A DNA stretch of 64,000 bases from a virus. Lineage: Duplodnaviria; Heunggongvirae; Uroviricota; Caudoviricetes. Positions 21,433 to 60,902 of the stretch are shown piece by piece. Position numbers and translations under genes: made by a program. The stretch lies in IMG/VR virus record IMGVR_UViG_3300032163_000007, positions 21,587 through 85,586 of that record, one strand, 5' to 3'. The notes beneath the pieces are model-generated. The model was not told the DNA's origin. It saw only the letters and a program-made list of their open reading frames with translations, and ran no database searches. How positions within the stretch are numbered: the first letter of the stretch is position 1; every line of letters begins with the position of its first letter.

Positions 21433-21523
21433 GGAAGGCCAACCCGATAGTTGGCGACGGGAGCTGTCTTGAAAACAGCCGAGCCGAAAGGCCTTAGAGG
21501 ATCGTCCCCTCTGCCTTCCGCCA
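21433..21523 (+). tRNA. tRNA-Ser(TGA)-like, type II, divergent D-arm and T-loop (possibly pseudo or atypical)
   Basis: 7-bp acceptor GGAAGGC/GCCTTCC + G + CCA; anticodon arm GCTGT-CTTGAAA-ACAGC; long variable arm with GAAA tetraloop; T-stem AGAGG/CCTCT with loop ATCGTCC; layout parallels E. coli tRNA-Ser(UGA). Confidence 0.5.
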
Positions 21524-21558
21524 TTAAATAGAGTAGTGTTCGAATTCTTGGAAGGATG

Positions 21559-21571
21559 CCATAATTAAGAT
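21559..21571 (+). promoter_or_regulatory. HEG-associated -10-like element CCATAATTAAGAT directly abutting the ATG
   Basis: Shared TAATTAAG core immediately upstream of all six homing-endonuclease starts. Confidence 0.45.
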
Positions 21572-22150
21572 ATGGAAATAGAAAGATTTTGTGATGTATG
21601 TGGTAAAGGCTTAGTTGGGAAGCAGCGGCACTACTGCTCCACTAGGTGTAAGCGTCTAAGCCACAAGAGCCTAGGGGGTACTGCATACTGCGTAATATGT
21701 GGAGAAAGTTTTCTAACACATGGAAGGTTAAGTCAGAAAACCTGCTCTACTACGTGTGCTGGCCTGTACAGGTCGAGAGCTCTAGATATTGAGAAGGTTG
21801 ATCGGGAGTACCGTCAGCGTAGTAAAGACCATTACGCAAAGTACAAGCAGGCGTATATTGACAGAAATAATAAGCAGTACGCAGAAGGCAAGGCATTTAT
21901 TAATGAGGAAAAGGTTCGTAGGGGTGGATGCTGCGTCTGTGGAGAGCTGGAACCTGTAGTACTTGACTTACACCACCTTGACCCAAAGCAGAAAGAAAAT
22001 AACTTAGCCCAGATGATCAGATACAGAAAAGAGCGAATTTTAGATGAGATGGCAAAAGGAGTTATTATATGCTCCAATTGTCACAAGAAGCATCATGCAG
22101 GACTTTTAGAGATTCCTTCCGATGCTGATAGAGGGCAGGTAGTCTCGTAA
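21572..22150 (+). CDS. HNH homing endonuclease with N-terminal zinc-ribbon repeats
   Basis: Repeated CxxCG...F and CSTxC motifs; HNH core 'DLHHLDP...N...CSNCHKKHH'; lies inside the tRNA array. Confidence 0.7.
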   Translation: MEIERFCDVCGKGLVGKQRHYCSTRCKRLSHKSLGGTAYCVICGESFLTHGRLSQKTCSTTCAGLYRSRALDIEKVDREYRQRSKDHYAKYKQAYIDRNNKQYAEGKAFINEEKVRRGGCCVCGELEPVVLDLHHLDPKQKENNLAQMIRYRKERILDEMAKGVIICSNCHKKHHAGLLEIPSDADRGQVVS

Positions 22151-22218
22151 GGGGCGAGGGTTGGCTGTAAACCAATTGCGGAAACGCCTTTATGGTTCAA
22201 ATCCATAACTGCCCACCA
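22133..22218 (+). tRNA. tRNA-Tyr(GTA)-like, type II; its 5' end overlaps the last 18 nt of the HNH gene
   Basis: Acceptor GGGCAGG/ACTGCCC (6 bp) + A + CCA; anticodon arm GTTGG-CTGTAAA-CCAAT; variable arm with GCG-GAAA-CGC; canonical T-arm TATGG-TTCAAAT-CCATA; 3 nt rather than 2 between acceptor and D-stem. Confidence 0.5.
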
Positions 22219-22255
22219 TAAAAATCGTTGACCTGAGTAGGTCGTAAAACTGCTC
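22219..22255 (+). repeat. conserved ~37-nt element (copy 1) immediately after a tRNA CCA end: TAAAAATCGTTGACCTGAGTAGGTCGTAAAACTGCTC
   Basis: Near-identical copy at 23599-23635; contains hairpin GACCT-gagt-AGGTC. Confidence 0.6.
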
Positions 22256-22320
22256 CGCGGTGGATAATAACAGAAAGTTGGTGATGTATATGTTGTAAAA
22301 GATCTAAGGAGGTCAACAAC

Positions 22321-22545
22321 ATGTCGAGATCAGTAAAGAAAAGTGGTTGGTGCACGGACGGACGCGATGGGCGTAAGTGGTGGAAAAACCAAGCCAACAG
22401 AAAGTTACGAAACGCGGAGGAAGTACCAAACGGTAAAGCATATAAGAAGCTTTATGAGAGTTGGAACATTCACGACTACAGGTTTCAAGTAGACCTGCAT
22501 GCGTGGTGGTTTGCAGAGAAGCCCTGGAAATACTTGGGCAAGTAA
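22321..22545 (+). CDS. hypothetical basic protein
   Basis: Strong RBS AAGGAGG; 74 aa, Lys/Trp-rich. Confidence 0.5.
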   Translation: MSRSVKKSGWCTDGRDGRKWWKNQANRKLRNAEEVPNGKAYKKLYESWNIHDYRFQVDLHAWWFAEKPWKYLGK

Positions 22546-22556
22546 ATTGTAAATGT

Positions 22557-22642
22557 GCCGGGATGATGTAATTGGTAGCCTTGCTAGTTTTAGAAACTAG
22601 TGTCCTTCGGACGTAGGAGTTCAAGTCTCCTTCCCGGTACCA
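22557..22642 (+). tRNA. tRNA-Leu(TAG), type II
   Basis: Strong similarity to bacterial tRNA-Leu (D-loop AATTGGTAG, variable arm GTGTCCTTCGGACGT, T-arm GGAGTTCAAGTCTCC); CCA encoded. Confidence 0.85.
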
Positions 22643-22654
22643 AAATAAATAGTA

Positions 22655-22727
22655 GCTCTTGTAGCCCAACGGTAGAGGCACCGTTCTTAAACAGCGTCAA
22701 GTACTGGTTCGAATCCAGTCAGGAGCA
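22655..22727 (+). tRNA. tRNA with anticodon TAA (would read UUA, Leu) but class I shape with a short variable loop
   Basis: Acceptor GCTCTTG/CAGGAGC; T-arm ACTGG-TTCGAAT-CCAGT; anticodon loop CTTAAAC; A73. Confidence 0.55.
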
Positions 22728-22743
22728 TAATAAAGGTATTTTA

Positions 22744-22815
22744 GGGATTGTAGCTCAGTGGTAGAGCAGCCGACTCTTAATCGGAAGGTCGATGGTTCAA
22801 ACCCATCCTGTCCCA
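22744..22815 (+). tRNA. tRNA-Lys(CTT)
   Basis: D-arm GCTC-AGTGGTA-GAGC; anticodon loop CTCTTAA; T-arm GATGG-TTCAAAC-CCATC; one U-U mismatch in the acceptor stem. Confidence 0.7.
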
Positions 22816-22818
22816 AGA

Positions 22819-22893
22819 GGATTCATAGCTCAATAGAAGAGCAGCCGGCTTTTAACCGGAAGGTTTAGGGTGCAAGTCCCTATGGATCCACCA
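22819..22893 (+). tRNA. tRNA-Lys(TTT)
   Basis: Acceptor GGATTCA/TGGATCC; anticodon loop CTTTTAA; T-arm TAGGG-TGCAAGT-CCCTA; CCA encoded. Confidence 0.75.
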
Positions 22894-22954
22894 AGGCAGT
22901 ATTAGAAAGGAAAGTAATTATGTTGAAACGAGTTAGATCAATTTAAGAAATAAT

Positions 22955-23044
22955 AGAAGCGTGGTCGAGAGGCTTATGACAGCAGTTTGCTAAACTGCCG
23001 AGCACGAAAGTGCTCCGTTGGTTCGATTCCAACCGCTTCTGCCA
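22955..23044 (+). tRNA. tRNA-Ser(GCT), type II
   Basis: Perfect acceptor AGAAGCG/CGCTTCT; anticodon loop TTGCTAA; long variable arm; T-arm GTTGG-TTCGATT-CCAAC; CCA encoded. Confidence 0.8.
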
Positions 23045-23047
23045 ATT

Positions 23048-23122
23048 GGCGCTGTCGTCTAATGGTTAGGACACCTGGTTTTCAACCAGGGAATCAGGGT
23101 TCAATTCCCTGCAGCGCTACCA
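23048..23122 (+). tRNA. tRNA-Glu(TTC)
   Basis: Anticodon arm CCTGG-TTTTCAA-CCAGG; T-arm CAGGG-TTCAATT-CCCTG; CCA encoded. Confidence 0.75.
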
Positions 23123-23130
23123 ACAATCAA

Positions 23131-23208
23131 GCGATCGTGGCCGAGTGGTCCAAGGCGGTGAGCTGCAACCTCACTAATCCAGAAGTTCGAATCTTCTCGA
23201 TCGCTCCA
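23131..23208 (+). tRNA. tRNA-Cys(GCA)
   Basis: Perfect acceptor GCGATCG/CGATCGC; anticodon arm GTGAG-CTGCAAC-CTCAC; T-arm AGAAG-TTCGAAT-CTTCT; CCA encoded. Confidence 0.7.
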
Positions 23209-23265
23209 AATTAAGTACTAAAAGTTACGCCATATAGTCTATAATATAAATAAGGAGTTGAAGTA

Positions 23266-23367
23266 AATGTCAGTTGTAGCACGTATCCCCCAGATCCAAC
23301 ATCAACAACGCATTAGCCATGCTCCAGCTATTGTAGTGCCCGCAGCGTGGGACGATAGCATCAAATA
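23266..23367 (+). CDS. micro-ORF (33 aa) inside the tRNA array, with its own promoter-like TATAAT/TATAAATA, an RBS and a terminator
   Basis: 'TAGTCTATAATATAAATAAGGAGttgaagtaaATG'; followed by a rho-independent terminator. Confidence 0.35.
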
Positions 23368-23393
23368 AATACAGCCTCCATTTTTAGACAGTT

Positions 23394-23423
23394 CAAAAAA
23401 GGAGGCTTCGGCCTCCTTTTTTT
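23394..23423 (+). terminator. rho-independent terminator (bidirectional type)
   Basis: AAAAAAGGAGGC-ttcg-GCCTCCTTTTTTT. Confidence 0.8.
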
Positions 23424-23445
23424 ATTGTCTGTGGAGTTTGTTAGA

Positions 23446-23519
23446 CCGTGTGTAGCTCAGTTTGGTAGAGTACTGGTTTTGGGAACCAGATGCCGAAGGT
23501 TCGAACCCTTCTACACGGA
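23446..23519 (+). tRNA. tRNA-Pro(TGG)
   Basis: Acceptor CCGTGTG/TACACGG; anticodon arm CTGGT-TTTGGGA-ACCAG; T-arm GAAGG-TTCGAAC-CCTTC. Confidence 0.75.
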
Positions 23520-23523
23520 AAAT

Positions 23524-23598
23524 CTGGGATAGGTGTTTTTAGAGGCATAGCCGCTTTGGAAGCGGGCGGGGTTGGGGCGGTTCCAACATTCCAGACCA
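23524..23598 (+). tRNA. degenerate tRNA-Pro(TGG)-like tandem copy (pseudo or atypical tRNA)
   Basis: 7-bp acceptor CTGGGAT/ATTCCAG + A + CCA; anticodon loop TTTGGAA on a 4-bp stem; T-stem GTTGG/CCAAC with non-canonical loop GGCGGTT; D-loop lacks GG. Confidence 0.35.
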
Positions 23599-23635
23599 TA
23601 AAAATTGCGGACCTGAGTAGGTCGTAAAACTGCTC
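23599..23635 (+). repeat. conserved ~37-nt post-CCA element (copy 2): TAAAAATTGCGGACCTGAGTAGGTCGTAAAACTGCTC
   Basis: Near-identical to 22219-22255; again directly follows a degenerate tRNA's CCA. Confidence 0.6.
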
Positions 23636-23648
23636 AGTACTTGAAACT

Positions 23649-23723
23649 AGGCTTATAGTGAAATGGTTATCACACTTCCCTTTGACGGAAGTATTATTGG
23701 TTCGAATCCAGTTAGGCCTGCCA
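23649..23723 (+). tRNA. tRNA-Gln(TTG)
   Basis: Acceptor AGGCTTA/TAGGCCT; D-arm GTGA-AATGGTTA-TCAC; anticodon arm CTTCC-CTTTGAC-GGAAG; T-arm ATTGG-TTCGAAT-CCAGT; CCA encoded. Confidence 0.75.
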
Positions 23724-23758
23724 AAGTTATATCTTGTTGTGTTTAGATCTTACTCTGC

Positions 23759-23771
23759 CTATAATTAAACT
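23759..23771 (+). promoter_or_regulatory. HEG-associated element CTATAATTAAACT abutting the ATG
   Basis: Shared TATAATTAA core. Confidence 0.45.
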
Positions 23772-24419
23772 ATGGAAAAGAAAAAAGAAGATCGATTTTG
23801 CAGCATATGTGGTAGACGCTTAGCTTGGAATCAAGTCAGCTGTTGCTCTAACACGTGTAGACTTGCACTCAAAGAGTCTAAGAAGACTATAAAGTTTTGC
23901 AAGCAGTGTGGAAAGCAGCTGGGACCTAAAGACTATCAGAAGCAGTTCTGTAATGGATCTTGTGCTGCTACGTACAATAACTTAGCAAAGGGTAGAGACA
24001 GAATGGTAGAGGCGGTATGTCCTATATGTGGTAAGAAGTTTACTACTCTACCACATAAGCGTAGAGTTAGTTGTAGCTCTGAGTGCGCCCTTGTGCTTAG
24101 GAGCCACAGAGTAGCGAGCCTTATAAAGAGTGGAGAGTTCACATACCAAGGAGGTGGTAGTGTCCCCCAAAGTGTTAGGCGATATATTATGCAGAAGTAT
24201 GGGAGTAAGTGTACTAAGTGCGGTTGGCATGAGGTCAATCCTAAAACAGGAAAGACACCGCTACATGTAGACCACATAGATGGTAACTCCCAGAATTATA
24301 AAGAGGAGAATCTAGATCTGCTATGCCCTAATTGCCACAGCCTGACCCCTACCTATGGTAGTCTTAATAAGGGTAACGGCAGGGATAGTATAAAGAAGCG
24401 GATTAAGGGTTTAGTATAG
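23772..24419 (+). CDS. HNH homing endonuclease with zinc-ribbon repeats
   Basis: Five CxxCG/CSxxC repeats; HNH core 'LHVDHIDGNSQNYKEENLDLLCPNCH'. Confidence 0.7.
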   Translation: MEKKKEDRFCSICGRRLAWNQVSCCSNTCRLALKESKKTIKFCKQCGKQLGPKDYQKQFCNGSCAATYNNLAKGRDRMVEAVCPICGKKFTTLPHKRRVSCSSECALVLRSHRVASLIKSGEFTYQGGGSVPQSVRRYIMQKYGSKCTKCGWHEVNPKTGKTPLHVDHIDGNSQNYKEENLDLLCPNCHSLTPTYGSLNKGNGRDSIKKRIKGLV

Positions 24420-24484
24420 CAGTAGTACGCCGATCTCCAAAATCGGAGGTAGGAGGGCAGCACTTCTAATCCTTGCCATATAAC

Positions 24485-24560
24485 GGGGCTGTAGCGCAAC
24501 TGGTAGCGCATTTGTCTTGCACACAAAAGGTCATCGGTTCGATCCCGATCAGCTCCACCA
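24485..24560 (+). tRNA. tRNA-Ala(TGC)
   Basis: D-arm GCGC-AACTGGTA-GCGC; anticodon arm TTTGT-CTTGCAC-ACAAA; T-arm ATCGG-TTCGATC-CCGAT; CCA encoded. Confidence 0.8.
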
Positions 24561-24563
24561 AGC

Positions 24564-24638
24564 GGTTTGTTGGTGTAATGGTTAGCACGGTTGATTGTCA
24601 ATCAACAAGCAGGAGTTCAATTCTCCTACTTACCGCCA
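24564..24638 (+). tRNA. tRNA-Asp(GTC), acceptor stem with two U-U mismatches
   Basis: D-arm GTGT-AATGGTTA-GCAC; anticodon arm GTTGA-TTGTCAA-TCAAC; T-arm AGGAG-TTCAATT-CTCCT; 3' end ...ACCGCCA. Confidence 0.6.
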
Positions 24639-24641
24639 TTT

Positions 24642-24716
24642 AGGATATTAGCTCAGCAGTAGAGCAATCGGCTGATAACCGATAGGTCCGTAGGGCAGCA
24701 CTACGATATCCTACCA
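24642..24716 (+). tRNA. tRNA-Ile(GAT) with atypical D-loop (no GG) and T-loop (GGCAGCA, no TTC)
   Basis: Perfect acceptor AGGATAT/ATATCCT + A + CCA; anticodon arm ATCGG-CTGATAA-CCGAT; T-stem CGTAG/CTACG. Confidence 0.55.
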
Positions 24717-24832
24717 TAAAGATTTGAGGGATAGAATGAGCCTGCGGTGGTTGAGACCCCACACTACGAAGAGGTAGTAAAAATAGCAGGCCCCCTTCAC
24801 TCCGCCCGGGTACGCGGTAAAACTGCCCATGA

Positions 24833-24905
24833 GGATCCTTAGCTCAGATGGTAGAGCGCCCTCCTTACAAGTGGGATGTCGTAGGTTCGAGTCCTACAGG
24901 ATCCA
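24833..24905 (+). tRNA. tRNA-Val(TAC)
   Basis: Perfect acceptor GGATCCT/AGGATCC; D-arm GCTC-AGATGGTA-GAGC; anticodon loop CTTACAA; T-arm GTAGG-TTCGAGT-CCTAC. Confidence 0.75.
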
Positions 24906-24908
24906 AAT

Positions 24909-24985
24909 GGGTAATTAGCTCAATGGATTAGAGCGCATGCCTACGAAGCATAAGGTTGAAGGTTCGAGTCCTTCATTGCCCTCCA
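24909..24985 (+). tRNA. tRNA-Arg(ACG)
   Basis: Acceptor GGGTAAT/ATTGCCC; anticodon loop CTACGAA; T-arm GAAGG-TTCGAGT-CCTTC; CCA encoded. Confidence 0.7.
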
Positions 24986-24988
24986 AGT

Positions 24989-25062
24989 GGTGATAGTAGT
25001 GTAATGGAAGCACACTTCTCTGTGAAAGAAGTAGACAGGGGTCAGTACCCGCTATCACACCA
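24989..25062 (+). tRNA. tRNA-His(GTG) with G-1 and a non-canonical shortened T-arm
   Basis: G-1 + acceptor GTGATAG/CTATCAC; anticodon arm CTTCT-CTGTGAA-AGAAG; T region GGGT-cagt-ACCC; CCA encoded. Confidence 0.5.
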
Positions 25063-27560: not shown

Positions 27561-27569
27561 GAGCTAACT

Positions 27570-28658
27570 ATGTGGATGATGTACTTAATAGCTTTGATCC
27601 CGATAGTCGTAGGAATGTTCCTATGGGCATTTTCTAAGAGAATAACACTCACTGAGTACCTACTCTCTTGTTTAACAGGCATTGTTGTTACAGTACTAAT
27701 CACCCTCCTCATGGCACTCGGCATGACTGGGGACATCGAGACCTGGTCAGGCCTAGTTACCAAAGCCACACATATTCCTACCTGGGTTAACACCTATGAG
27801 CAGGCTCACTATGTCACAGTAGGTAAGACTACAACCGTATACTACACCACTGAGTACAACACTAACCCAGAGCACTGGGTTGCTGAGGCTACCCTTGGAA
27901 GTAGGGGCGCTGAAATTGGTATCAGTGAGGCCAGGTATAATGATATCTTAAAGAAGTTTGGCAGAGAAGTAGTAGTTAATGGGAGTAGGCCTAGTTATCA
28001 TTCTGGAGATAGGAATGACTACGTTGCTGTTAACGATAGCAAATACGTCTATCCAATCACACAGGAGTATAGTTTTACAAATAAGGTAAAGGCTTGTCCT
28101 AGTGTGTTTTCATACACGAAGGTATCTCCTGGAATTAAGGTGTTCGAATACCCCAAGAACGAGGACCTCTTTAAGTCAGATAGACTCATGGGAGAAGCCA
28201 AGAAAGACTTCAACATCTACGAGTTTGACAAGTTAAACACGGCAGTAGGTATGAAGATCTGGGCAAACATCATAATTGTAGGTTTTAAGGGGCAGGACTC
28301 TAAGATTGCCCAACTACAAGAGGCAAAGTGGGTCGGTGGAAAGAAGAATGACCTAGTCATTTGCTATTCCAAAGAACCCAAATGGGCTTATGTGTTTGGA
28401 TGGACTGAGAATGAACAGGTAAAGCGAAATCTCGAAGAGCTGTTTACTATCGGAACGATCAGTGGTAATATGTTACCTCAGATCCAAGAAGTAGTTATGA
28501 AGGATTATAAGATTAAAGACTGGTCTAAGTTTGATTACTTGACTGTAGAACCTCCGGGCTGGGCATTTGCTCTCTTGATCGCTTTGATGCTGCTAACGCA
28601 GTTTGGGTACTACTGGTGGGCATTTACGAATGGAGAAGATAAAGATGAAAGTATTTAA
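27570..28658 (+). CDS. membrane protein (DUF2207-like partner of LemA): N-terminal TMs, large central domain, C-terminal TM
   Basis: Hydrophobic N- and C-termini; adjacent to the LemA gene, as is often seen in bacteria. Confidence 0.4.
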   Translation: MWMMYLIALIPIVVGMFLWAFSKRITLTEYLLSCLTGIVVTVLITLLMALGMTGDIETWSGLVTKATHIPTWVNTYEQAHYVTVGKTTTVYYTTEYNTNPEHWVAEATLGSRGAEIGISEARYNDILKKFGREVVVNGSRPSYHSGDRNDYVAVNDSKYVYPITQEYSFTNKVKACPSVFSYTKVSPGIKVFEYPKNEDLFKSDRLMGEAKKDFNIYEFDKLNTAVGMKIWANIIIVGFKGQDSKIAQLQEAKWVGGKKNDLVICYSKEPKWAYVFGWTENEQVKRNLEELFTIGTISGNMLPQIQEVVMKDYKIKDWSKFDYLTVEPPGWAFALLIALMLLTQFGYYWWAFTNGEDKDESI

Positions 28659-29799
28659 GAAGGACAATTTAATAATCAAAAGCTGGTGTGAGAATCCCGA
28701 GCAAGGTGCGCTGGACCAAGCATTCAATACAGCATCGGCTCCCTATATATTTAGACAAGTATGCCTAATGCCCGATACCCATCAAGGTTATGGCGTTCCC
28801 ATTGGGGGCGTAGTTGCGACTAAAGGAGTTATTCTTCCTGAAGCCGTAGGAGTTGACATTGGATGTGGGATGATCGCCGTAGAAACGAGTATTGACGTAC
28901 CCAGTGTTGATCAAATTAAGGCTGTGATGGGAAAGATTCGTGCAGTTATTCCTGTTGGAATGAATCACAGAGCAGATAAGTGCCCCATCTCTGCCATGCC
29001 TAGCATAGGAGACATCATCAGCAATGGTATCGTGGAACGAGAGTTTGAGTCAGCTAGAAAGCAACTTGGAACTCTTGGAAGCGGAAACCACTTCTTAGAA
29101 CTACAAAAGGATGCTAAAGGCAAGCTTTGGGTCATGATCCACAGCGGAAGCAGAAACATTGGATACAAGGTTGCAGAGCACTACATCGATGAAGCCAAGC
29201 TTCTGAATAAAATGTGGTACACAAACACTCCTGAAGAGATTTGTATGCTACCCGCTGACTCAGAACTAGGAATAGCCTATGCTGCTGAAATGCAATACTG
29301 CGTTGACTTCGCTCTGGCGAATCGAAAGATGATGCTTGATGACGTTATGGCTATTATCAGCCACGATCTAGGAGCTAGCTTCAAAGAGCCTATAAACATA
29401 GCGCATAACTATGCAGCTATTGAGCACCACTACGGAGAGAACGTAATAGTTCATCGCAAGGGTGCTACTAGAGCTAGACTCGGTGAATTAGGAATTATTC
29501 CTGGGAGTCAAGGAACAAAGTCGTATATTGTTGAGGGTCTCGGCAATCCTGAGAGCTTTCAAAGCTGCAGTCATGGTGCTGGGCGTACAATGGGCCGTAA
29601 AGAGGCTACACGAGTTTTAGATCTAGTTGCTGAGATTAAGATACTGGATGACCAAGGAATTGTTCACGGTATTAGAACTGCCAAGGACCTTGAAGAGGCT
29701 ACAAGTGCCTACAAGGACATCGATATAGTCATGGAAGAACAAAAGGATCTTGTTAAGATTGTTACTGAGTTGCTCCCTGTAGCAGTAATAAAGGGGTAA
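28645..29799 (+). CDS. rtcB: RtcB RNA 3'-phosphate/5'-OH ligase
   Basis: RtcB motifs PDTHQGYGVPIGG, GCGM, GSGNHF, HSGSRN, NYAAIEHH, HRKGAT, IPGSQG, SHGAGR. Confidence 0.85.
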   Translation: MKVFKKDNLIIKSWCENPEQGALDQAFNTASAPYIFRQVCLMPDTHQGYGVPIGGVVATKGVILPEAVGVDIGCGMIAVETSIDVPSVDQIKAVMGKIRAVIPVGMNHRADKCPISAMPSIGDIISNGIVEREFESARKQLGTLGSGNHFLELQKDAKGKLWVMIHSGSRNIGYKVAEHYIDEAKLLNKMWYTNTPEEICMLPADSELGIAYAAEMQYCVDFALANRKMMLDDVMAIISHDLGASFKEPINIAHNYAAIEHHYGENVIVHRKGATRARLGELGIIPGSQGTKSYIVEGLGNPESFQSCSHGAGRTMGRKEATRVLDLVAEIKILDDQGIVHGIRTAKDLEEATSAYKDIDIVMEEQKDLVKIVTELLPVAVIKG

Positions 29800-29800
29800 C

Positions 29801-32231: not shown

Positions 32232-32322
32232 AGAAGCCTTCCAACAGGTATAGAGCTCCACAGTAACAGCTCAATATGTGAAAGCTAGGCTTGAGAAGGA
32301 AGCTGCTGAACCCAGAGACCCC

Positions 32323-32679
32323 ATGGACGAGGTGGTTCAGTATATTGTTGTACGCAAGGACCTCAACATGAGTAAAGGTAAGATGGCTGCACAAGTGGCA
32401 CATGCCAGCATTGCTACTGTCTATCCCTACCTATGGGACGCTGAGGTAAAGACATGGTTGGACAGGGCCTTCACAAAGATTATCTTAGAAGTAAAGAATC
32501 TAGCAGCTCTAGAAAAACTGGAACGTATGTGTATTGAGCGTCACATGGTGTTCAAGACAATAGTAGATAATGGCCGAACAGAGGTGGAGCCTAATACGCC
32601 CACATGCTTAGGGTTTAAGCCCTATAAAAAATCCCAGCTCGGTGACTTTCTCAAAAAGTACCAACTGTACAAAGATTAA
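32323..32679 (+). CDS. peptidyl-tRNA hydrolase, PTH2 family
   Basis: 'YIVVRKDLNMSKGKMAAQVAHAS' and 'DNGRTEVEPNTPTCLGFKP' match PTH2 conserved blocks; start set at the Met that gives a ~118-aa PTH2-sized product. Confidence 0.7.
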   Translation: MDEVVQYIVVRKDLNMSKGKMAAQVAHASIATVYPYLWDAEVKTWLDRAFTKIILEVKNLAALEKLERMCIERHMVFKTIVDNGRTEVEPNTPTCLGFKPYKKSQLGDFLKKYQLYKD

Positions 32680-44311: not shown

Positions 44312-45100
44312 ATGGGTACAGATATTAAGGTAGGAATTGGTTCAGTAGTGGTGGGGTTGGTTGTAATCGTAGCGATTATGATGGCCTTCTCCTCAGTTAA
44401 GTTCGTCGGTATTGGTCAGCGCGGAGTTGTGTTTAATAAGTTCAGCGGTGAGATTAGTCGTACATTGGGTCAAGGTGTTAACTTCGTTAATCCTATTACT
44501 GACAAAGTGAAGAAGTATGATGTTAAGGTCACCAAAGAGACTTATGAAATGGAAGGTCTGAGTTCAGACAGTCAAACAATCAAAGCTAAGATCGTAGTCA
44601 ACTACAAACTTCGCAGTGAAAAATTGATCAGTATTTACCAGAACATCCAGGGTGATATCTCTGAGACGGTTCTTGCCAATGCGGTTATTGATACCACTAA
44701 AGCAGAGCTTGGTAAGTTTACCATCGATAACATTGCTAAGAACAGAGAGAGTCTCAAGCTAGCTGTTGAAGATGCCCTCAAAAAGCGCATGTTCTCACAG
44801 GGTATTGATATTCAGAACGTAAGTATCACTGATGTTAACTTCAGTGCGGAATTTGAAAAGTCCATCCAGGACAAAATGATTGCAGAGCAGCAAGCTCTTC
44901 AAGCTAAGAACAATAAGGAAAAGGTTCGTTATGAATCTGAGGCCAAAGCCATTGAAAACGAAAAGATGGCACAGAGTATCAGCCCAATGGTTCTTCAGCA
45001 ACGTCTGATCGAGAAATGGGATGGTCACCTACCAACAACTATGTCTGGTGGTGGAACAGGTGCAATGAGCTTCCTAATGAATTTAGGTACAGCGAAGTAA
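44312..45100 (+). CDS. SPFH/band-7 (prohibitin/HflC-like) membrane protein
   Basis: N-terminal TM; SPFH core and C-terminal coiled coil 'AEQQALQAKNNKEKV'. Confidence 0.65.
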   Translation: MGTDIKVGIGSVVVGLVVIVAIMMAFSSVKFVGIGQRGVVFNKFSGEISRTLGQGVNFVNPITDKVKKYDVKVTKETYEMEGLSSDSQTIKAKIVVNYKLRSEKLISIYQNIQGDISETVLANAVIDTTKAELGKFTIDNIAKNRESLKLAVEDALKKRMFSQGIDIQNVSITDVNFSAEFEKSIQDKMIAEQQALQAKNNKEKVRYESEAKAIENEKMAQSISPMVLQQRLIEKWDGHLPTTMSGGGTGAMSFLMNLGTAK

Positions 45101-45120
45101 GTTACAGTAGTTAAGGTGGT

Positions 45121-45150
45121 GGTGATTAGAAGCAGGGGCACAAGCCCCTG
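45121..45150 (+). terminator. rho-independent terminator
   Basis: AGCAGGGGC-acaa-GCCCCTGCT followed by ATGGTTTTC. Confidence 0.6.
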
Positions 45151-45715
45151 CTATGGTTTTCACCGCATCAGATAAAAATAATTGTCAGCGGTGTCGTGAG
45201 ACACCCACAGTGTAGAGCATACGGCTGTGACTAAATAGGGGTAATATACATCCCCAAATAAGAATGATTGCAGGCCTGAAATGTCAGGAGGATGGACTAG
45301 AATGCTGTTATGCTCCCCATCCATAAATGGAAGCAACCGTGCTGACAATTAGAATATAGACGTGGGTGGTTTGCAACCTAGAAGCAATCAAGGCATCGCC
45401 TCTTAACAATGCGTACCCGGCCGAGTGATATGGTCTAAAGTGGCTATAGGCCACAATGATGGTTAAAGCGTATCACCTCCTACCAGTCGGCAGACTGGGC
45501 CCACGCTATCCTCTAAGGAGTTTGTAAGTGTCAATAGGTCAATGGTTTGTAGTGCTAATAGTTATTGAAAGTATTCTGGGTGGATTGTGCTTCGGCCTGA
45601 TGGAAGGTGATATAATTAGGGCACTGTACTGGATCCTCATTGGTATACTTAACGCTCTAACACTCTATATGAAATGATAATTAGAATAGTATGTTAGAAG
45701 GTGGGTGATTGTAGC

Positions 45716-45844
45716 ATGAAGAAAGTAGCAAGTATCGTATTGGTTATGGCAGTAGTGGTAGTCCTCATAGGATGCGCCCCTAAGGCAGCAGTTAGCGCAG
45801 AAGCAGTAACAGCAAACGCGGTAGTAACAGTAGACGCAAAATAA
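45716..45844 (+). CDS. small lipoprotein (42 aa)
   Basis: RBS AAGGTGG; signal peptide with lipobox 'VLIGC'; not in the ORF track (<60 aa). Confidence 0.45.
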   Translation: MKKVASIVLVMAVVVVLIGCAPKAAVSAEAVTANAVVTVDAK

Positions 45845-45858
45845 AAACAATGGTTTTG

Positions 45859-45886
45859 AGGAACCCCTGCGGGGGTTCCATTTTTA
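45859..45886 (+). terminator. rho-independent terminator
   Basis: GGAACCCC-tgc-GGGGGTTCC followed by ATTTTT. Confidence 0.75.
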
Positions 45887-45887
45887 G

Positions 45888-45961
45888 GCCCGGTTAGCAT
45901 AGAGGTCATGCAGCGGATTTGTAATCCGCCTACGGGGGTTCAAATCCCTCACTGGGCTCCA
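45888..45961 (+). tRNA. tRNA-Thr(TGT)
   Basis: D-arm GCAT-AGAGGTC-ATGC; anticodon arm GCGGA-TTTGTAA-TCCGC; T-arm GGGGG-TTCAAAT-CCCTC; CCA encoded. Confidence 0.8.
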
Positions 45962-47389: not shown

Positions 47390-49018
47390 ATGAAATTCGA
47401 TGAAACCGTTTATTTACACGTAAGAAATAGCTTTGTCACTATAAAGTGCGAGTATATTACTGCGTTCCAAAAGCTCAAGAGAGAGCTATCCTTTCGTCCC
47501 ATGGGCTACAACTATAGTCCTAAGTTTAAGAGTGGCATGTGGGATGGATATATTCAGTTTGTTAGAGGTGACAAATTGATGACTGGGCTTCTACCTCTAA
47601 TCATAGAGGCATGCAAAGCCAATAAGTATCCATATAAAATCATTGATGAGCGCAAGGACCCCCTTAAAGAGCTTAATGAAATCAACCTCAGTAATGGCAT
47701 TACTCTCAGAGATGATCAGTATGAGGCCGTAGCTGAGGTAATTCATAACAAGAGGGGCATTGTGGCAGCTGCTACAAACGCAGGCAAAACATATATTGCT
47801 ACGGGCCTATATAAAGCTACAGGCCTAAAGACTCTATTCCTTACACATCGTGAAGAGCTCTTTACTCAGACCGAAGAAACCTTTGAAGGCATGCTTGGAG
47901 AAAAGATTGGTCACATCTGGGACAAGGACAACGACCACAACTTCAAGCTGACCATTGGAATGGTTCCCACAATAGCTAGGCGTCTTGAGAATCCCGAAGA
48001 AACTCTAAAGGGCCTGAAGAAGAGACTACTCGATCATAGTATAGAGTTACGTAAAGCCTGTGATGTGTTGAATAAGGTTGCAGGTCCTATTGGGATTAAG
48101 ACTTACACAGCTAAAGTAAAGAAGATTGAAAGCAATATGAAGAGAGTGCAAACTTCAGTTACTAACCTCACAAACAATATGGCCGCAGAGATCCAGAGAT
48201 GGAAAGATCTCAATAAGTACCTCTCTGAAGTAGAGATGGTTATAGTGGATGAAGCGCATCATAGTAGTGCTGAGACTTATGAGGATATTCTCTTAAAGTG
48301 CGACAGTGCATTCTACCGAGTGGGATTAACAGGTACTCCTGACTCCAAGGACAAGGTCAAAGATCTAAAGCTGAGAGGTTTGTTGGGGGAGGTCATATAT
48401 ACTATATCCAATCAGGAACTGATCGAGCTTGGAGTGAGCTCCACACCTACGATACACTTCCTTACTACACGTAAGCCTATTGTTGCTTCAGATTATCAGA
48501 GTGCCTATAAGTTAGGAATTATCAAGAACAGTGAGCGCAATGATCACATTGTTGAGGTATGTAAGAAGAAGCTAGCAGACAACAAGCCAGTCCTAATTCT
48601 AATCAACCATACAGACCATGGAGACCACCTGCACGAGTACCTCCTCAGGAGTGGATTCAAAGCCGACGATGTGGCGTTCATTCATGGTGGAAGCGTTGAC
48701 AGCCATAGAAAGGCAAAATTGACGGCTTTCAAGGAGGGTAAGGTGCCTATACTAATAGCATCTCTCATCTTACAGGAAGGAGTCAGCGTAAATAGCATAG
48801 GAGCGTTGATATTTGCCTTAGGTGGTAAGTCAAACGTACGAGTGTTACAGATTGCAGGTCGTGCTCTACGACTTAATAACTATGGCAATAAGGTGGAGAT
48901 CTACGACTTTTTAGACTATGGAGATCAATACCTGAAAGAGCATAGTAAGGAGAGGTATAGCACATATAAGAAAAGCTTCGGAGTAGAAGCTTTTGCAGAA
49001 GGGACACCAGAAGTATGA
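47390..49018 (+). CDS. SF2 DEAH-box helicase (UvsW-like)
   Basis: Motif I 'ATNAGKTYIA'; motif II 'VDEAHH'; motif III 'GLTGTP'; motif VI 'QIAGRALR'. Confidence 0.65.
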   Translation: MKFDETVYLHVRNSFVTIKCEYITAFQKLKRELSFRPMGYNYSPKFKSGMWDGYIQFVRGDKLMTGLLPLIIEACKANKYPYKIIDERKDPLKELNEINLSNGITLRDDQYEAVAEVIHNKRGIVAAATNAGKTYIATGLYKATGLKTLFLTHREELFTQTEETFEGMLGEKIGHIWDKDNDHNFKLTIGMVPTIARRLENPEETLKGLKKRLLDHSIELRKACDVLNKVAGPIGIKTYTAKVKKIESNMKRVQTSVTNLTNNMAAEIQRWKDLNKYLSEVEMVIVDEAHHSSAETYEDILLKCDSAFYRVGLTGTPDSKDKVKDLKLRGLLGEVIYTISNQELIELGVSSTPTIHFLTTRKPIVASDYQSAYKLGIIKNSERNDHIVEVCKKKLADNKPVLILINHTDHGDHLHEYLLRSGFKADDVAFIHGGSVDSHRKAKLTAFKEGKVPILIASLILQEGVSVNSIGALIFALGGKSNVRVLQIAGRALRLNNYGNKVEIYDFLDYGDQYLKEHSKERYSTYKKSFGVEAFAEGTPEV

Positions 49019-57076: not shown

Positions 57077-57085
57077 CAAGAATGA

Positions 57086-60432: not shown

Positions 60433-60902
60433 AAAACCAGAAAGAGGTAATGGAGTTAGCTGCAGAGCTTCACAAAGGCCAGACTCGTGAAGATGGCATC
60501 GAGCCTTATGTGAACCATCCTCTCAGAGTATCCACACTATACCAGGAATACACTTGGTCTAGTAACCAAATCATGATTGCGCTCCTGCATGATACGATTG
60601 AGGACTGTGGCGTGACGGAGGATGACCTTGTAATGAAGCATGGAGTTCCTCCTGCTGTAGCTATGGGAGTTGCAATGCTTTCTAGAGTGAAAGATGAGTC
60701 TTATGTGGACTTTATCCACCGCATTGGTAAGAGCTTCAAGTCTATGAGGGATATCAAAATCGCTGATATAAAGGATAATCTTAGGAACCATAAGAAGAGT
60801 AGTAGAAGAGATAAGTATGAGCTTGCTCTAGCTCTGCTGCAGTCTTATGGGGACCTCGAAGAAAAAACAACCGTAATTCTTAATGTATTAAAGCAAAAAT
60901 AA
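60429..60902 (+). CDS. HD-domain hydrolase of the RelA/SpoT (p)ppGpp-hydrolase type (small alarmone hydrolase-like)
   Basis: 'HPLRVSTLY...IMIALLHDTIEDCG' matches the SpoT/Mesh1 HD signature. Confidence 0.6.
   Translation: MKNQKEVMELAAELHKGQTREDGIEPYVNHPLRVSTLYQEYTWSSNQIMIALLHDTIEDCGVTEDDLVMKHGVPPAVAMGVAMLSRVKDESYVDFIHRIGKSFKSMRDIKIADIKDNLRNHKKSSRRDKYELALALLQSYGDLEEKTTVILNVLKQK

What the first reader, a model, noticed from the sequence alone, without database searches (positions are those of the whole stretch)
28645..29799. tRNA repair set: RtcB ligase, CCA-adding enzyme (52269-53723) and PTH2 (32323-32679) alongside two tRNA arrays
RtcB seals the 2',3'-cyclic-P/5'-OH breaks made by anticodon nucleases, and the CCA enzyme rebuilds 3' ends. 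Several encoded tRNAs lack a genomic CCA (Leu-UAA-like, Lys-CTT, Pro, Val, Asn, Asp). PTH2 recycles peptidyl-tRNA. The set is larger than in T4, which uses Pnk+Rnl1, and suggests a counter-defence strategy against tRNA-cleaving or 3'-end-modifying systems.
Basis: partly seen in the sequence, partly recalled or inferred. Interest (0 to 1): 0.6.

Follow-up and report, generated by a model that had tools for sequence, protein, structure and literature searches.

The report
Phage tRNA-repair and Ro/Y-RNA toolkit
A large uncultured phage carries about 24 tRNA genes, enzymes predicted to re-join, re-tip and recycle damaged tRNAs, and a Ro60 protein with three small Y RNAs; this combination is already described for big phages, so it is a very complete new example, not a new kind of system.

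Summary
The three genes are real and look catalytically intact: RtcB (28645-29799), a class-II CCA-type nucleotidyltransferase with an HD domain (52269-53723) and PTH2 (32278-32679). They lie among two tRNA clusters in a phage contig of at least 172 kb. Six of about 24 tRNAs lack an encoded CCA: Leu-UAA, Lys-CUU, Pro, Val, Asn and Met.

There is also an RlaP nucleotidyltransferase (49015-49977), a 121-aa GGQ "mini release factor" (40484-40849), and a Ro60/TROVE protein (41298-42755). Three Y-like RNAs (40930-41261) precede the Ro60 gene, and one has a tRNA-like domain. Their two-helix scaffold covaries strongly across six related loci and a Vibrio phage.

Together the parts resemble the Salmonella rsr-yrlBA-rtcBA repair operon plus tRNA end repair and ribosome rescue. 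They are scattered over 24 kb, not arranged as an operon.

The same toolkit (tRNAs, RtcB, RlaP, CCA enzyme, TROVE, PTH2) was described for jumbo phages as anti-nuclease counter-defence (PMC7824862). I therefore class this as a rich new member of a known kind. The counter-defence role is plausible but untested; CCA addition could simply mature the six CCA-less tRNAs.

Side observation: several tRNAs have a non-canonical elbow that recurs in other viral contigs.

The parts
28645..29799 (+). RtcB RNA ligase (3'-P or 2',3'-cyclic-P joined to 5'-OH), 384 aa
   Evidence: Pfam RtcB E 4.4e-107, profile positions 1-426 of 426. Alignment to P. horikoshii RtcB (1UC2/4DWQ) keeps D95/C98 (GVDIGCG), N202/H203 (GSGNHF), H234 (HSGSR), H329 (AHN) and the GMP-accepting H404 (SHGAGR). 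708 phage records carry a homologue; the best is 42% identical.
32278..32679 (+). PTH2-type peptidyl-tRNA hydrolase, 133 aa
   Evidence: Pfam PTH2 E 7.8e-32. Alignment to S. solfataricus Pth2 (1XTY) keeps K18, D86 and T90. Only 38 phage records have a homologue.
40484..40849 (+). Stand-alone GGQ (RF-1 domain) protein, 121 aa; predicted peptidyl-tRNA hydrolase acting on stalled ribosomes
   Evidence: Pfam RF-1 E 4.9e-15. GGQ motif in KKGGNGGQKV. PDB hits are the GGQ domains of RF1, RF2 and PrfH only. Full-length homologues at 44-49% identity occur in 209 phage records, 206 of them named Mycobacterium phage, annotated 'RF-1 domain peptide chain release factor'.
40930..41007 (+). Y-like RNA Ya (short; no tRNA-like domain)
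   Evidence: Outer helix GUUCUG/CAGAAC, 5' loop CAUUAAA, inner helix 8 of 8 paired, then invariant UUACAUCG. Same scaffold as the 17 other elements in alignment A2.
41025..41162 (+). Y-like RNA Yb with a tRNA-like domain (T arm, stem, D arm), YrlA-type
   Evidence: Rfam YrlA RF02553 at 41039-41152: 41 bits (gathering score 69), E 1.9e-6 in a 10-kb search and 9e-8 in 471 nt, full model length. It lies 136 nt upstream of the TROVE gene on the same strand. Helices pair 8 of 8 and 6 of 6. Equivalent sub-threshold YrlA hits lie upstream of TROVE in L050 and L051.
41182..41261 (+). Y-like RNA Yc (short)
   Evidence: Outer helix CCUCAG/CUGAGG and inner helix GCGAAGAA/UUCUUCGC flank UUACAUCG. It overlaps a promoter-like match at 41227-41255.
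41298..42755 (+). Ro60 orthologue (TROVE ring plus vWA domain), 485 aa
   Evidence: Pfam TROVE E 1.8e-19. Best PDB hit is Thermus phage phiLo Ro60 (9KOP/9L5Y) over residues 17-467, including the MIDAS-like DESGSM (PMC12135203). 736 homologues at E below 1e-30; the best is 55% identical.
49015..49977 (+). RlaP (RNA-ligase-associated Pol-beta) nucleotidyltransferase, 320 aa
   Evidence: Pfam RlaP E 2.7e-22. NTase signature GSHAYG...SDED. 591 phage records have a homologue. In related contig L053 the genes run TROVE, two genes, RlaP, CCA/HD in one row.
52269..53723 (+). Class-II CCA-type tRNA nucleotidyltransferase with C-terminal HD domain, 484 aa
   Evidence: Pfam PolyA_pol, PolyA_pol_RNAbd, HD and tRNA_NucTran2_2. 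Motif A GGCVRD..DTD, motif B RRDFTMNA, motif D EDYLRALRGVQF and HDIGKP all align to B. stearothermophilus CCA enzyme 1MIV and to PDB 3WFO. NCBIfam ranks CCA models (143, 131, 124 bits) above PcnB (71 bits), but none reaches its equivalog cut-off.
21433..25062 (+). tRNA cluster 1: 19 genes (Ser, Tyr, Leu, Leu-UAA-like, Lys x2, Ser, Glu, Cys, Pro x2, Gln, Trp, Ala, Asp, Ile, Val, Arg, His), interrupted by an HNH endonuclease ORF
   Evidence: HNH domain at 23772-24419.
43175..45961 (+). tRNA cluster 2: Met, Asn, Gly, a Phe-like gene, Thr, interspersed with a homing-endonuclease-like ORF and an SPFH protein
60429..60902 (+). Possible accessory part: small RelA/SpoT-type (HD_4) hydrolase, 157 aa
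   Evidence: Pfam HD_4 E 2.9e-9. NCBIfam spoT_relA, hydrolase region only, E 3.7e-16. Any link to tRNA 3'-end repair is my inference, not shown.

Best explanation
The window is the early or metabolic region of an uncultured tailed phage of at least 172 kb. It encodes a dispersed toolkit for keeping translation running during infection.

**Shown by sequence**
- About 24 phage tRNAs are present.
- RtcB has every metal-binding residue and the GMP-accepting histidine.
- RlaP has the Pol-beta nucleotidyltransferase signature.
- The class-II nucleotidyltransferase has an intact CCA-type pocket and an HD phosphohydrolase domain.
- PTH2 has its catalytic Lys, Asp and Thr, and the 121-aa protein has a GGQ motif.
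- The Ro60 orthologue is preceded by three structured Y-like RNAs.

**Inferred mechanism**
1. Host or competitor ribonucleases cut tRNAs, mostly in the anticodon loop, leaving 2',3'-cyclic-phosphate and 5'-OH ends. RtcB re-seals these directly with GTP and Mn2+, so no kinase or phosphatase step is needed, unlike T4.
2. Where a nucleotide has been trimmed off, RlaP adds one or two nucleotides back to the 3'-OH.
3. The CCA enzyme adds CCA to the six phage tRNAs that lack it and rebuilds nibbled 3' ends. Its HD domain may first remove 2',3'-cyclic or 3' phosphates.
4. The GGQ protein and PTH2 free ribosomes and tRNAs trapped as peptidyl-tRNA.
5. Ro60 with its Y RNAs binds misfolded or broken RNAs. 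It either hands them to a host 3'-5' exonuclease (PNPase) or scaffolds the repair enzymes through the tRNA-like domain of Yb.
For: **Enzyme identities and active sites:**

**tRNA complement and CCA status:**

**Y RNAs**
- Sub-threshold but significant YrlA hits lie directly upstream of TROVE on the same strand in the window, L050 and L051.
- Across 18 elements from six loci, 97.6% of helix cells pair, against 63% when shuffled (0 of 500 shuffles reach the observed value) and 31-40% when the partners are slid.
- 13 of 14 pairs show compensatory change.
- Only 0.6% of random positions reach the same pairing.
- The same scaffold occurs in cultured Vibrio phage phiKT1024.

**Recurrent linkage**
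- L053 has TROVE, RlaP and CCA/HD in one row. L052 has TROVE next to a tmRNA, with Thg1 about 6.6 kb upstream.
- RtcB and RlaP are each common in the same host-genus groups: Mycobacterium 221 and 261 records, Erwinia 17 and 14. The mini release factor is also common in Mycobacterium phages (206).
- One mycobacterial prophage has PTH2 and the mini release factor within 2 kb, beside a tRNA.

**Literature**
- RlaP adds 1-2 NMP to damaged RNA and restores aminoacylation of repaired tRNA (PMC12776372).
- Jumbo-phage tRNA, RtcB, RlaP, CCA, TROVE and PTH2 have been interpreted as counter-defence (PMC7824862).
Against: - No function was tested. The host and its nucleases are unknown.
- The genes are not an operon. 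They are spread over 24 kb among nucleotide-metabolism and DNA genes, so co-function rests on recurrence and on family knowledge.
- No RtcA, archease or RtcR was found in the ORFs scanned (most of those of 90 aa or more).
- The CCA enzyme is below every NCBIfam equivalog cut-off. CC-adding, A-adding or poly(A) activity cannot be excluded.
- The six CCA-less tRNAs give the CCA enzyme a sufficient housekeeping role.
- The only biochemically studied phage Ro60 (phiLo) forms a complex with host PNPase (PMC12135203). That points to RNA decay or takeover, not repair.
- The Y-RNA 3' partners were chosen by pairing, which inflates the percentage paired. L050 and L051 are close relatives, so there are fewer than 18 independent elements.
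Confidence: 0.6

Rival explanations
1. Housekeeping, not counter-defence. The phage brings a near-complete tRNA set, and the enzymes serve that set. The CCA enzyme matures the six CCA-less tRNAs. PTH2 and the GGQ protein cope with peptidyl-tRNA drop-off under very heavy late translation. RtcB handles ordinary RNA breakage or some processing step.
For: - Six of 24 tRNAs have A-rich trailers in place of CCA and must be processed and CCA-tailed.
- All these genes sit among metabolic auxiliaries (PurA, NrdD/NrdG, QueD/QueE/FolE2, ThyX) that simply boost capacity.
Against: - From general knowledge, bacteria already have a CCA enzyme.
- RtcB and RlaP have no known biosynthetic substrate in bacteria, and none of the 24 tRNA genes has an intron.
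- RlaP prefers damaged RNA (PMC12776372).
- This reading and the repair reading are not mutually exclusive.
Confidence: 0.25
2. The Ro60/Y-RNA module is an RNA-decay or takeover device, unconnected to RtcB. The Y RNAs tether Ro60 to host PNPase or another exonuclease, either to degrade structured host RNAs or to divert PNPase from host functions such as crRNA maturation.
For: - Thermus phage phiLo Ro60 with two upstream Y-like RNAs forms a Ro60-Y RNA-PNPase complex with host PNPase (PMC12135203).
- The bacterial Ro60/Y RNA complex specialises PNPase for structured-RNA decay (PMC4201824).
- In the window, TROVE is 12 kb from RtcB, and most TROVE relatives show no RtcB within 10 kb.
Against: - In Salmonella, rsr and its Y RNAs share an operon with rtcBA.
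- In relative L053, TROVE is followed by RlaP and a CCA/HD enzyme.
- Yb carries a tRNA-like domain, which would suit recruitment of tRNA enzymes.
Confidence: 0.3
3. The repeated structured elements at 40930-41261 are not Y RNAs. They are cis-regulatory or repeat elements in a long 5' leader of the TROVE gene, for example attenuators or processing sites.
For: - Only Yb resembles an Rfam family, and it scores below the gathering threshold (41 against 69 bits).
- The published Ro-binding motif GNCGAAN(0-1)G is replaced by UUACAUCG.
- Yc overlaps a promoter-like match.
- No expression data are available.
Against: - The stem, internal loop, stem layout with a conserved single-stranded motif is the Y-RNA architecture (PMC12135203).
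- Arrays of one to four such elements always sit upstream of TROVE on its strand, in six metagenomic loci and one Vibrio phage.
- The variable inserts include tRNA-like domains, as in YrlA.
Confidence: 0.1

Closest known systems
RNA-repair toolkit of jumbo and large phages (Iyer, Anantharaman, Krishnan, Burroughs, Aravind 2021, PMC7824862, section 3.4.9)
   Same: The parts list is the same: many phage tRNAs, RtcB, RlaP, a CCA-adding enzyme, a TROVE protein with a tRNA-like partner RNA, and archaeo-eukaryotic PTH2. The proposed purpose is also the same: undoing host RNase attacks and rescuing jammed ribosomes.
   Different: - This phage is unrelated at DNA level to any deposited phage. Its proteins are at most 40-55% identical to relatives.
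- It combines all of these parts in one 64-kb window and adds a GGQ mini release factor.
- It has no ATP-grasp RNA ligase or Pnkp in the part of the contig examined.
Salmonella enterica rsr-yrlBA-rtcBA RNA repair operon (PMC7790460; PMC4201824)
   Same: It has Ro60 (Rsr), two or more Y RNAs of which one (YrlA) has a tRNA-like domain, and RtcB. The operon is tied to tRNA halves ending in 2',3'-cyclic phosphate.
   Different: - No RtcA and no RtcR/sigma-54 control were found here.
- The genes are 12 kb apart, not in one operon.
- The Y RNAs lie upstream of Ro60 and carry UUACAUCG where the published motif is GNCGAAN(0-1)G.
Thermus phage phiLo Ro60 with Yrl1 and Yrl2 (PMC12135203; PDB 9KOP, 9L5Y)
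   Same: It is the best structural relative of the window's TROVE protein. It too has several Y-like RNAs directly upstream of the phage Ro60 gene, each with a stem, bulge, stem layout.
   Different: - Similarity is distant (phmmer E 2e-11).
- phiLo has two Y RNAs with a CGAA motif. This phage has three with UUACAUCG, one of them tRNA-like.
- The phiLo paper does not mention RtcB (0 occurrences).
Phage T4 Pnkp plus Rnl1 repair of PrrC-cleaved tRNA-Lys (textbook knowledge)
   Same: It is a phage-encoded reversal of anticodon-loop cleavage.
   Different: T4 heals the ends (kinase and phosphatase) and then seals them with an ATP-dependent ligase. Here a single RtcB would seal 2',3'-cyclic-P and 5'-OH ends directly. 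No Pnkp or Rnl homologue was found.
E. coli RtcB2-PrfH ribosome rescue and repair pair (PMC9304027)
   Same: An RtcB ligase occurs together with a GGQ-domain factor that lacks stop-codon recognition. The window's GGQ protein hits PrfH structures and the PrfH model.
   Different: - The GGQ protein is only 121 aa (GGQ domain plus a roughly 40-aa tail), scores 48 bits against the PrfH cut-off of 167, and lies 11 kb from RtcB.
- RtcB scores higher on the general RtcB model than on the PrfH-linked model.
Large mycobacteriophages of about 154-164 kb (e.g. ScottMcG, Cane17, Myrna)
   Same: They hold the closest full-length homologues of the mini release factor (47-49% identity) in genomes of about 154-161 kb. 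Mycobacterium phages also account for many of the RtcB and RlaP matches, and some carry PTH2. The tallies are by host genus, so I did not confirm that all of these sit in the same genomes.
   Different: - The host phylum differs and there is no DNA similarity.
- Mycobacterium is not among the ten most frequent host genera of TROVE matches.
- The gene order is unrelated.

Membership tests
RtcB RNA ligase (PF01139) | Full-length match above the Pfam gathering score | tested here: met
   359 bits against 27; profile positions 1-426 of 426.
RtcB RNA ligase (PF01139) | Metal ligands Asp95, Cys98, His203, His234, His329 and the GMP-accepting His404 (P. horikoshii numbering) | tested here: met
   All are conserved in the alignment to 1UC2/4DWQ: DIGCG, GNHF, HSGSR, AHN, SHGAGR.
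RtcB RNA ligase (PF01139) | GTP- and Mn2+-dependent joining of 3'-P or 2',3'-cyclic-P ends to 5'-OH ends | not testable with these tools
   Needs an enzyme assay.
Class-II CCA-adding enzyme | Head-domain motif A (GGxVRD...DxD), motif B (RRD) and motif D (EDxxR) | tested here: met
   GGCVRD..DTD, RRDFTMNA and EDYLRALR align to 1MIV.
Class-II CCA-adding enzyme | Score above an NCBIfam CCA equivalog cut-off | tested here: not met
   Best is PRK13299 at 142.7 bits against 290. CCA models still outrank PcnB (71 bits).
Class-II CCA-adding enzyme | Adds C-C-A specifically, not CC only, A only or poly(A) | not testable with these tools
   Top PDB relatives are the B. stearothermophilus CCA enzyme (1MIV) and a class-II tRNA nucleotidyltransferase deposited as 'Poly A polymerase' (3WFO), which from memory is the Aquifex aeolicus CC-adding enzyme. 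Specificity needs an assay.
Class-II CCA-adding enzyme | HD phosphohydrolase domain, as in the multifunctional E. coli Cca | tested here: met
   Pfam HD E 6.9e-8; the HDIGKP motif aligns to 3WFO.
PTH2 (PF01981) | Domain match above the gathering score, plus catalytic Lys18, Asp86 and Thr90 (S. solfataricus numbering; the residue roles are recalled from memory) | tested here: met
   110 bits against 23. KGK and DnGrT are conserved against 1XTY. It is below the NCBIfam equivalog cut-off (93.6 against 126).
Ro60 / TROVE (PF05731) | TROVE ring plus a vWA domain with a MIDAS motif | tested here: met
   70.7 bits against 23. Alignment to phiLo Ro60 covers residues 17-467, with DESGSM opposite DVSGSM.
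Ro60 / TROVE (PF05731) | YrlA-like RNA within 4 kb on the same strand with E below 5e-5 (criterion of PMC4201824) | tested here: met
   The YrlA hit ends 146 nt upstream of the TROVE start codon, E 1.9e-6. I used the Rfam model, not the authors' own models.
YrlA Y RNA (Rfam RF02553) | Rfam gathering score | tested here: not met
   41 bits against 69. L050 scores 38 and L051 scores 35.
YrlA Y RNA (Rfam RF02553) | tRNA-like domain (T arm, stem, D arm) closed by a 5'/3' stem | tested here: met
   GCAGG-UUCGAGU-CCUGC and GCUC-AGUUGGUAG-AGC. The closing helices covary.
YrlA Y RNA (Rfam RF02553) | Ro-binding motif GNCGAAN(0-1)G near the 5' end | tested here: not met
   It is replaced by the motif UACAUCG (usually UUACAUCG), which is invariant in all 18 elements.
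RlaP (PF10127) | Domain above the gathering score, plus the Pol-beta NTase G[GS]...DxD signature | tested here: met
   80 bits against 23. GSHAYG...SDED.
PrfH / ArfB ribosome-rescue factors | GGQ catalytic motif | tested here: met
   GGNGGQ; Pfam RF-1.
PrfH / ArfB ribosome-rescue factors | Full-length family match (the PrfH N-terminal domain, or the basic C-terminal tail of ArfB) | tested here: not met
   PrfH model 48.5 bits against 166.65; ArfB model 24.7 against 100. The tail WLKMETARRIAAKAGNYVDDY... is not markedly basic.
T4-type heal-and-seal (Pnkp plus Rnl1/Rnl2) | Presence of a polynucleotide kinase-phosphatase and an ATP-dependent RNA ligase | tested here: not met
   - No such Pfam or NCBIfam match in the ORFs scanned (most of those of 90 aa or more) or in the 10-kb flanks.
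- The ligase at 54501-55700 is a DNA-ligase-type enzyme.
- The metallophosphatase at 61392-62198 hits the Pnkp model only at 18 bits.

The most novel reading that the evidence does not exclude
Two linked possibilities are not excluded.

1. The three Y RNAs define a phage-specific Y-RNA subfamily: outer helix, 7-nt loop, 8-bp helix, invariant UACAUCG (usually UUACAUCG), then variable cargo. The tRNA-like member would dock the phage's own RtcB, RlaP and CCA enzymes onto Ro60. That would make a portable ribonucleoprotein 'tRNA repair station', as opposed to the PNPase-based decay machine known from bacteria.

2. The phage tRNAs with the non-canonical elbow (D-loop AGCAGUA with T-loop GGCAGCA) recur in unrelated viral contigs with different anticodons. 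They could be a virus-borne tRNA scaffold selected to escape host enzymes or nucleases that read the tRNA elbow.
Probability: 0.15. Interest if true: 0.7.

Novelty: new member of a known kind. Interest (0 to 1): 0.4.

Why it matters
tRNA-cleaving and tRNA-modifying effectors (PrrC, RloC, colicin-like toxins, toxSAS and others) are a major branch of anti-phage immunity. The only phage repair route understood in detail is T4 Pnkp plus Rnl1.

This contig is one of the most complete examples of the alternative route, which has not been tested experimentally: direct RtcB sealing, RlaP and CCA end rebuilding, ribosome rescue, and Ro60 with Y RNAs.

The comparison also gives practical leads:
- The Y-RNA scaffold found here is present in cultured Vibrio phages (phiKT1024, and probably Va1), where it can be tested.
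- Related contigs place TROVE, RlaP and the CCA enzyme side by side, which argues that they work together.
- The Rfam YrlA model misses these RNAs at its gathering threshold, so phage Y RNAs are probably under-annotated.

Tried and rejected
- **DNA similarity:** megablast of 27500-33000 against 50,697 phage records found nothing. The phage has no close sequenced relative.
- **PurZ:** I tested whether the PurA-like gene beside RtcB is PurZ (a diaminopurine-genome marker). It is an ordinary adenylosuccinate synthase (457 bits against the PurA cut-off of 402; the PurZ model gives 142 against 300).
- **Membrane protein and RtcB:** the two-TM protein (27570-28658) overlaps the RtcB start codon. A homologue lies about 1 kb upstream of RtcB in Erwinia phage Ea35-70, but no RtcB is annotated within 4 kb of the Tenacibaculum phage PTm1 homologue. 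I dropped it as part of the system.
- **GNAT next to PTH2:** I tested whether 31740-32231 is a TacT-like tRNA acetyltransferase. It gives only weak generic GNAT and PseH hits. Rejected.
- **Missing RtcB partners:** I looked for archease, RtcA, RtcR, Pnkp, Rnl1/Rnl2 and Thg1 among the ORFs scanned (most of those of 90 aa or more) and in both contig flanks. None was found.
- **Rfam on Vibrio phage phiKT1024 and on L001:** no YrlA hit. The phiKT1024 element was recovered only with the scaffold rule derived here.
- **MFE folding of Yb alone:** uninformative (z = -1.9).
- **Permissive ARAGORN:** it called a 'tRNA-Thr' at 41025-41097. This is the 5' part of Yb, not a tRNA.
- **T-arm/D-arm pattern scan of viral contigs:** it returned mostly tandem tRNAs. 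A minority looked YrlA-like, with related UAC(A/U)UC motifs.

Full report
**1. What the window is**

All substantial ORFs lie on the + strand. Pfam identifies the following:
- phage replication and recombination genes: gp32, a RecA/UvsX-like protein, FEN, Mre11/Rad50-like proteins, UvsW and a DNA ligase;
- large terminase, portal, RuvC and a sigma-70-like factor;
- NrdD/NrdG, ThyX, PurA and QueD/QueE/FolE2.

Megablast finds no deposited phage with similar DNA. An exact-protein look-up places the window at about 100.7-164.7 kb of a 171,862-bp metagenomic contig, ENA ERZ27247924 k141_804020. GC content is 43%. The terminase is about 35% identical to those of SPO1-like Bacillus phages. This is a novel, large tailed phage.

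**2. Check of the observation**

RtcB (28645-29799), the CCA-type enzyme (52269-53723) and PTH2 are all confirmed by Pfam at E 4e-107, 9e-18 (plus three further domains) and 8e-32.

- RtcB aligns to P. horikoshii RtcB with every metal ligand and the GMP-accepting histidine conserved.
- The nucleotidyltransferase keeps motifs A, B and D of class-II CCA enzymes and an HDIGKP motif. NCBIfam ranks CCA models above poly(A) polymerase, but none reaches an equivalog cut-off.
- PTH2 keeps the residues equivalent to Lys18, Asp86 and Thr90 of S. solfataricus Pth2. Its ORF most likely starts at GTG 32278.

**3. The tRNAs**

Default ARAGORN gives 19 tRNAs. Rfam and permissive ARAGORN add five more. The total is 24, in clusters at 21433-25062 and 43175-45961, with homing-endonuclease-like ORFs inside both clusters.

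I took the Rfam model end as the discriminator base and read the next three bases. Six genes lack CCA: Leu-UAA-like, Lys-CUU, Pro no.1, Val, Met and Asn. Asp has CCA. No tRNA has an intron.

**4.

- 49015-49977 is an RlaP nucleotidyltransferase with the GS...DxD signature.
- 40484-40849 is a 121-aa protein consisting of little more than a GGQ release-factor domain. Full-length homologues at 44-49% identity occur in 209 phage records, 206 of them named Mycobacterium phage.
- 41298-42755 is a Ro60 orthologue (TROVE plus vWA). Its best structural relative is Thermus phage phiLo Ro60.
- 60429-60902 is a small RelA/SpoT-type hydrolase.
- No archease, RtcA, RtcR, Pnkp or ATP-dependent RNA ligase was found among the ORFs scanned or in the contig flanks.

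**5. The Y RNAs**

The 449-nt gap upstream of the Ro60 gene contains a full-length but sub-threshold match to Rfam YrlA at 41039-41152: 41 bits against a gathering score of 69, E 1.9e-6. It has a canonical T arm and D arm in the permuted order typical of YrlA.

I fetched five contigs that encode TROVE proteins 48-54% identical to the window's. All five have long non-coding gaps upstream of TROVE. Two of them give the same sub-threshold YrlA hit on the same strand.

Reading the gaps showed one to four elements per locus, in tandem where there are several, with a common scaffold:
- an outer helix of about 6 bp;
- a 7-nt loop (consensus UAUUAMA);
- an 8-bp inner helix;
- one nucleotide and then an invariant UACAUCG;
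- a variable insert of 22-250 nt, in several cases tRNA-like;
- the 3' strand of the inner helix;
- an 8-9-nt loop (GAAUUCAU-like);
- the 3' strand of the outer helix.

The window has three: Ya 40930-41007, Yb 41025-41162 (the YrlA hit) and Yc 41182-41261.

I aligned the scaffold parts of 18 elements (A2) and counted pairs:
- 97.6% of cells pair, against 63% in shuffles (0 of 500 reach the observed value) and 31-40% when partners are slid.
- 13 of 14 pairs show compensatory changes.
- The covariation score is 0.91 against 0.23 for shuffles.

Because I chose the 3' partners by pairing, I ran the same search from random positions. Only 0.6% reach full pairing, against 14 of 18 real elements. TACATCG sites elsewhere in these loci find no partner.

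The same scaffold, pairing 8 of 8 and 5 of 6, lies upstream of TROVE in cultured Vibrio phage phiKT1024. The conserved motif differs from the published GNCGAAN(0-1)G.

Phage Ro60 genes with YrlA-like RNAs (22 phages) and phiLo Ro60 with two upstream Y-like RNAs are already published. This is therefore a variant of a known arrangement.

**6. How it most likely works**

The identities above are shown by sequence. The pathway is inferred from family knowledge.
- RtcB seals 2',3'-cyclic-P and 5'-OH breaks directly.
- RlaP adds back one or two lost nucleotides (PMC12776372).
- The CCA enzyme tails the six CCA-less tRNAs and rebuilds damaged 3' ends. Its HD domain may clean phosphorylated ends, as E. 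coli Cca is known to do.
- The GGQ protein and PTH2 release and recycle peptidyl-tRNA.
- Ro60 with its Y RNAs triages broken or misfolded RNA.

Support for co-function comes from recurrence:
- TROVE, RlaP and CCA/HD lie in one row in L053.
- TROVE lies next to a tmRNA in L052, with Thg1 about 6.6 kb upstream.
- The same phage host-genus groups (Mycobacterium, Erwinia, Caulobacter, Brevundimonas, Prevotella Lak phages) recur in several of the RtcB, RlaP, CCA, TROVE, PTH2 and mini-release-factor searches.

Frequencies among 50,697 phage records are RtcB 708, RlaP 591, CCA-type 499, mini release factor 209, TROVE 87 and PTH2 38.

**7. Limits and rivals**

- The genes are dispersed over 24 kb, the host is unknown and nothing has been tested.
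- The CCA enzyme may be pure housekeeping for the CCA-less tRNAs.
- The Ro60 module may be a decay or takeover device that recruits host PNPase, as phiLo suggests.
- The Y-like elements could in principle be leader structures rather than separate RNAs.

I put 0.6 on the integrated repair and translation-maintenance reading. The identities themselves are near certain.

**8. Novelty**

Iyer et al. 2021 explicitly describe tRNAs, RtcB, RlaP, the CCA enzyme, TROVE and PTH2 in jumbo phages as a response to host RNases. The finding is therefore a new and unusually complete member of a known kind.

The points that go somewhat beyond the literature are:
- the UUACAUCG Y-RNA scaffold and its arrays;
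- the linkage of TROVE with RlaP and the CCA enzyme in relatives;
- the non-canonical-elbow tRNAs (section 9).

**9. Side observation followed part-way**

Five of the tRNAs are missed by default ARAGORN because their D and T loops are non-canonical. Trp-CCA and Ile-GAU share D-loop AGCAGUA and T-loop GGCAGCA.

A pattern scan of viral contigs found eight further perfect cloverleaves with exactly these loops. They carry other anticodons (Pro, Ile, Gly, Val, and Ile-UAU twice in a giant-virus MAG).

One keyword search of the held library (tRNA elbow, T-loop, phage, non-canonical tRNA) returned nothing describing this elbow.

Noticed in passing
window 24405-24478 (Trp-CCA), 24642-24716 (Ile-GAU); also 23524-23598 (Pro no.2), 24990-25062 (His), 44148-44223 (Phe-like); L058 3521-3596 and seven other viral loci: Five tRNAs have non-canonical elbows, so default ARAGORN misses them. 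Trp and Ile share D-loop AGCAGUA (no G18/G19) and T-loop GGCAGCA (no T-Psi-C). The same loop pair occurs in eight perfect cloverleaves with other anticodons in unrelated viral contigs, including a giant-virus MAG. Only 2 of the first 120 pattern hits in cellular genomes were cloverleaves, and that scan was truncated. All five carry an encoded CCA.
   Followed up: partly
window 44148-44223: A tRNA-like gene has an 8-nt anticodon loop (UCGAAGCC), a 3-bp anticodon stem with two C/A mismatches and a T-loop UGCGACA. Rfam scores it 24.7 bits, below threshold. It is the only candidate for Phe, and it could be a pseudo-tRNA or a frameshift-type tRNA.
   Followed up: partly
window 22655-22727: The tRNA with anticodon UAA (Leu codons) has a class-I shape: 73 nt with a short variable loop, not the long variable arm expected of tRNA-Leu. 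It has A73 and no encoded CCA.
   Followed up: no
window 27570-28658: A 362-aa protein with hydrophobic N- and C-terminal segments (likely transmembrane; phrog_2087, function unknown) overlaps the RtcB start codon by 14 nt. A 22%-identical homologue lies about 1 kb upstream of RtcB in Erwinia phage Ea35-70, but no RtcB is annotated within 4 kb of the Tenacibaculum phage PTm1 homologue.
   Followed up: partly
L052 8479-8857 (- strand) and 2489-3403; L053 7812-11754: Relatives place other RNA-maintenance genes next to TROVE. L052 has a full tmRNA (89.7 bits) in the upstream gap and a Thg1-family gene about 6.6 kb upstream. L053 has TROVE, a CTP-transferase-like gene, a small ORF, RlaP and CCA/HD in one row.
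   Followed up: partly
window 59536-62198: A cluster of phosphoesterases: a DHH/DHHA1 protein, a small RelA/SpoT-type HD_4 hydrolase, and an ApaH/PrpA-like metallophosphatase. They may degrade alarmones, Ap4A or nanoRNA. Any link to reversing tRNA 3'-pyrophosphorylation by toxSAS is speculation.
   Followed up: no
window 34052-37625: QueD (PTPS), QueE (radical SAM), a phosphoribosyltransferase-like ORF and FolE2 GTP cyclohydrolase are present, which are genes of a 7-deazaguanine pathway. No QueC or transglycosylase was seen in the window, so whether the target is DNA or tRNA is open.
   Followed up: no
window 13193-16261: The anaerobic ribonucleotide reductase NrdD is 1022 aa, and the Pfam match is split into two stretches. 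This suggests an insertion of roughly 300 aa. No intein or endonuclease domain was reported at E below 0.01.
   Followed up: no
window 55995-58155: ThyX appears split into two adjacent gene calls of 82 and 139 aa, the second matching only the C-terminal part of the Thy1 profile. A LAGLIDADG homing-endonuclease-like ORF follows directly. This could be a frameshift, an intron or a mobile-element insertion.
   Followed up: no
window 30321-31562: The phage encodes a genuine adenylosuccinate synthase (PurA; above the NCBIfam equivalog cut-off), not PurZ. The distantly related Vibrio phages Va1 and phiKT1024 also carry one about 2.3 kb upstream of their TROVE gene.
   Followed up: yes
window 44312-45100: An SPFH/Band-7 (HflK/C-like) protein is encoded inside tRNA cluster 2. 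A Band_7 gene also lies about 10 kb upstream of TROVE in L051.
   Followed up: no
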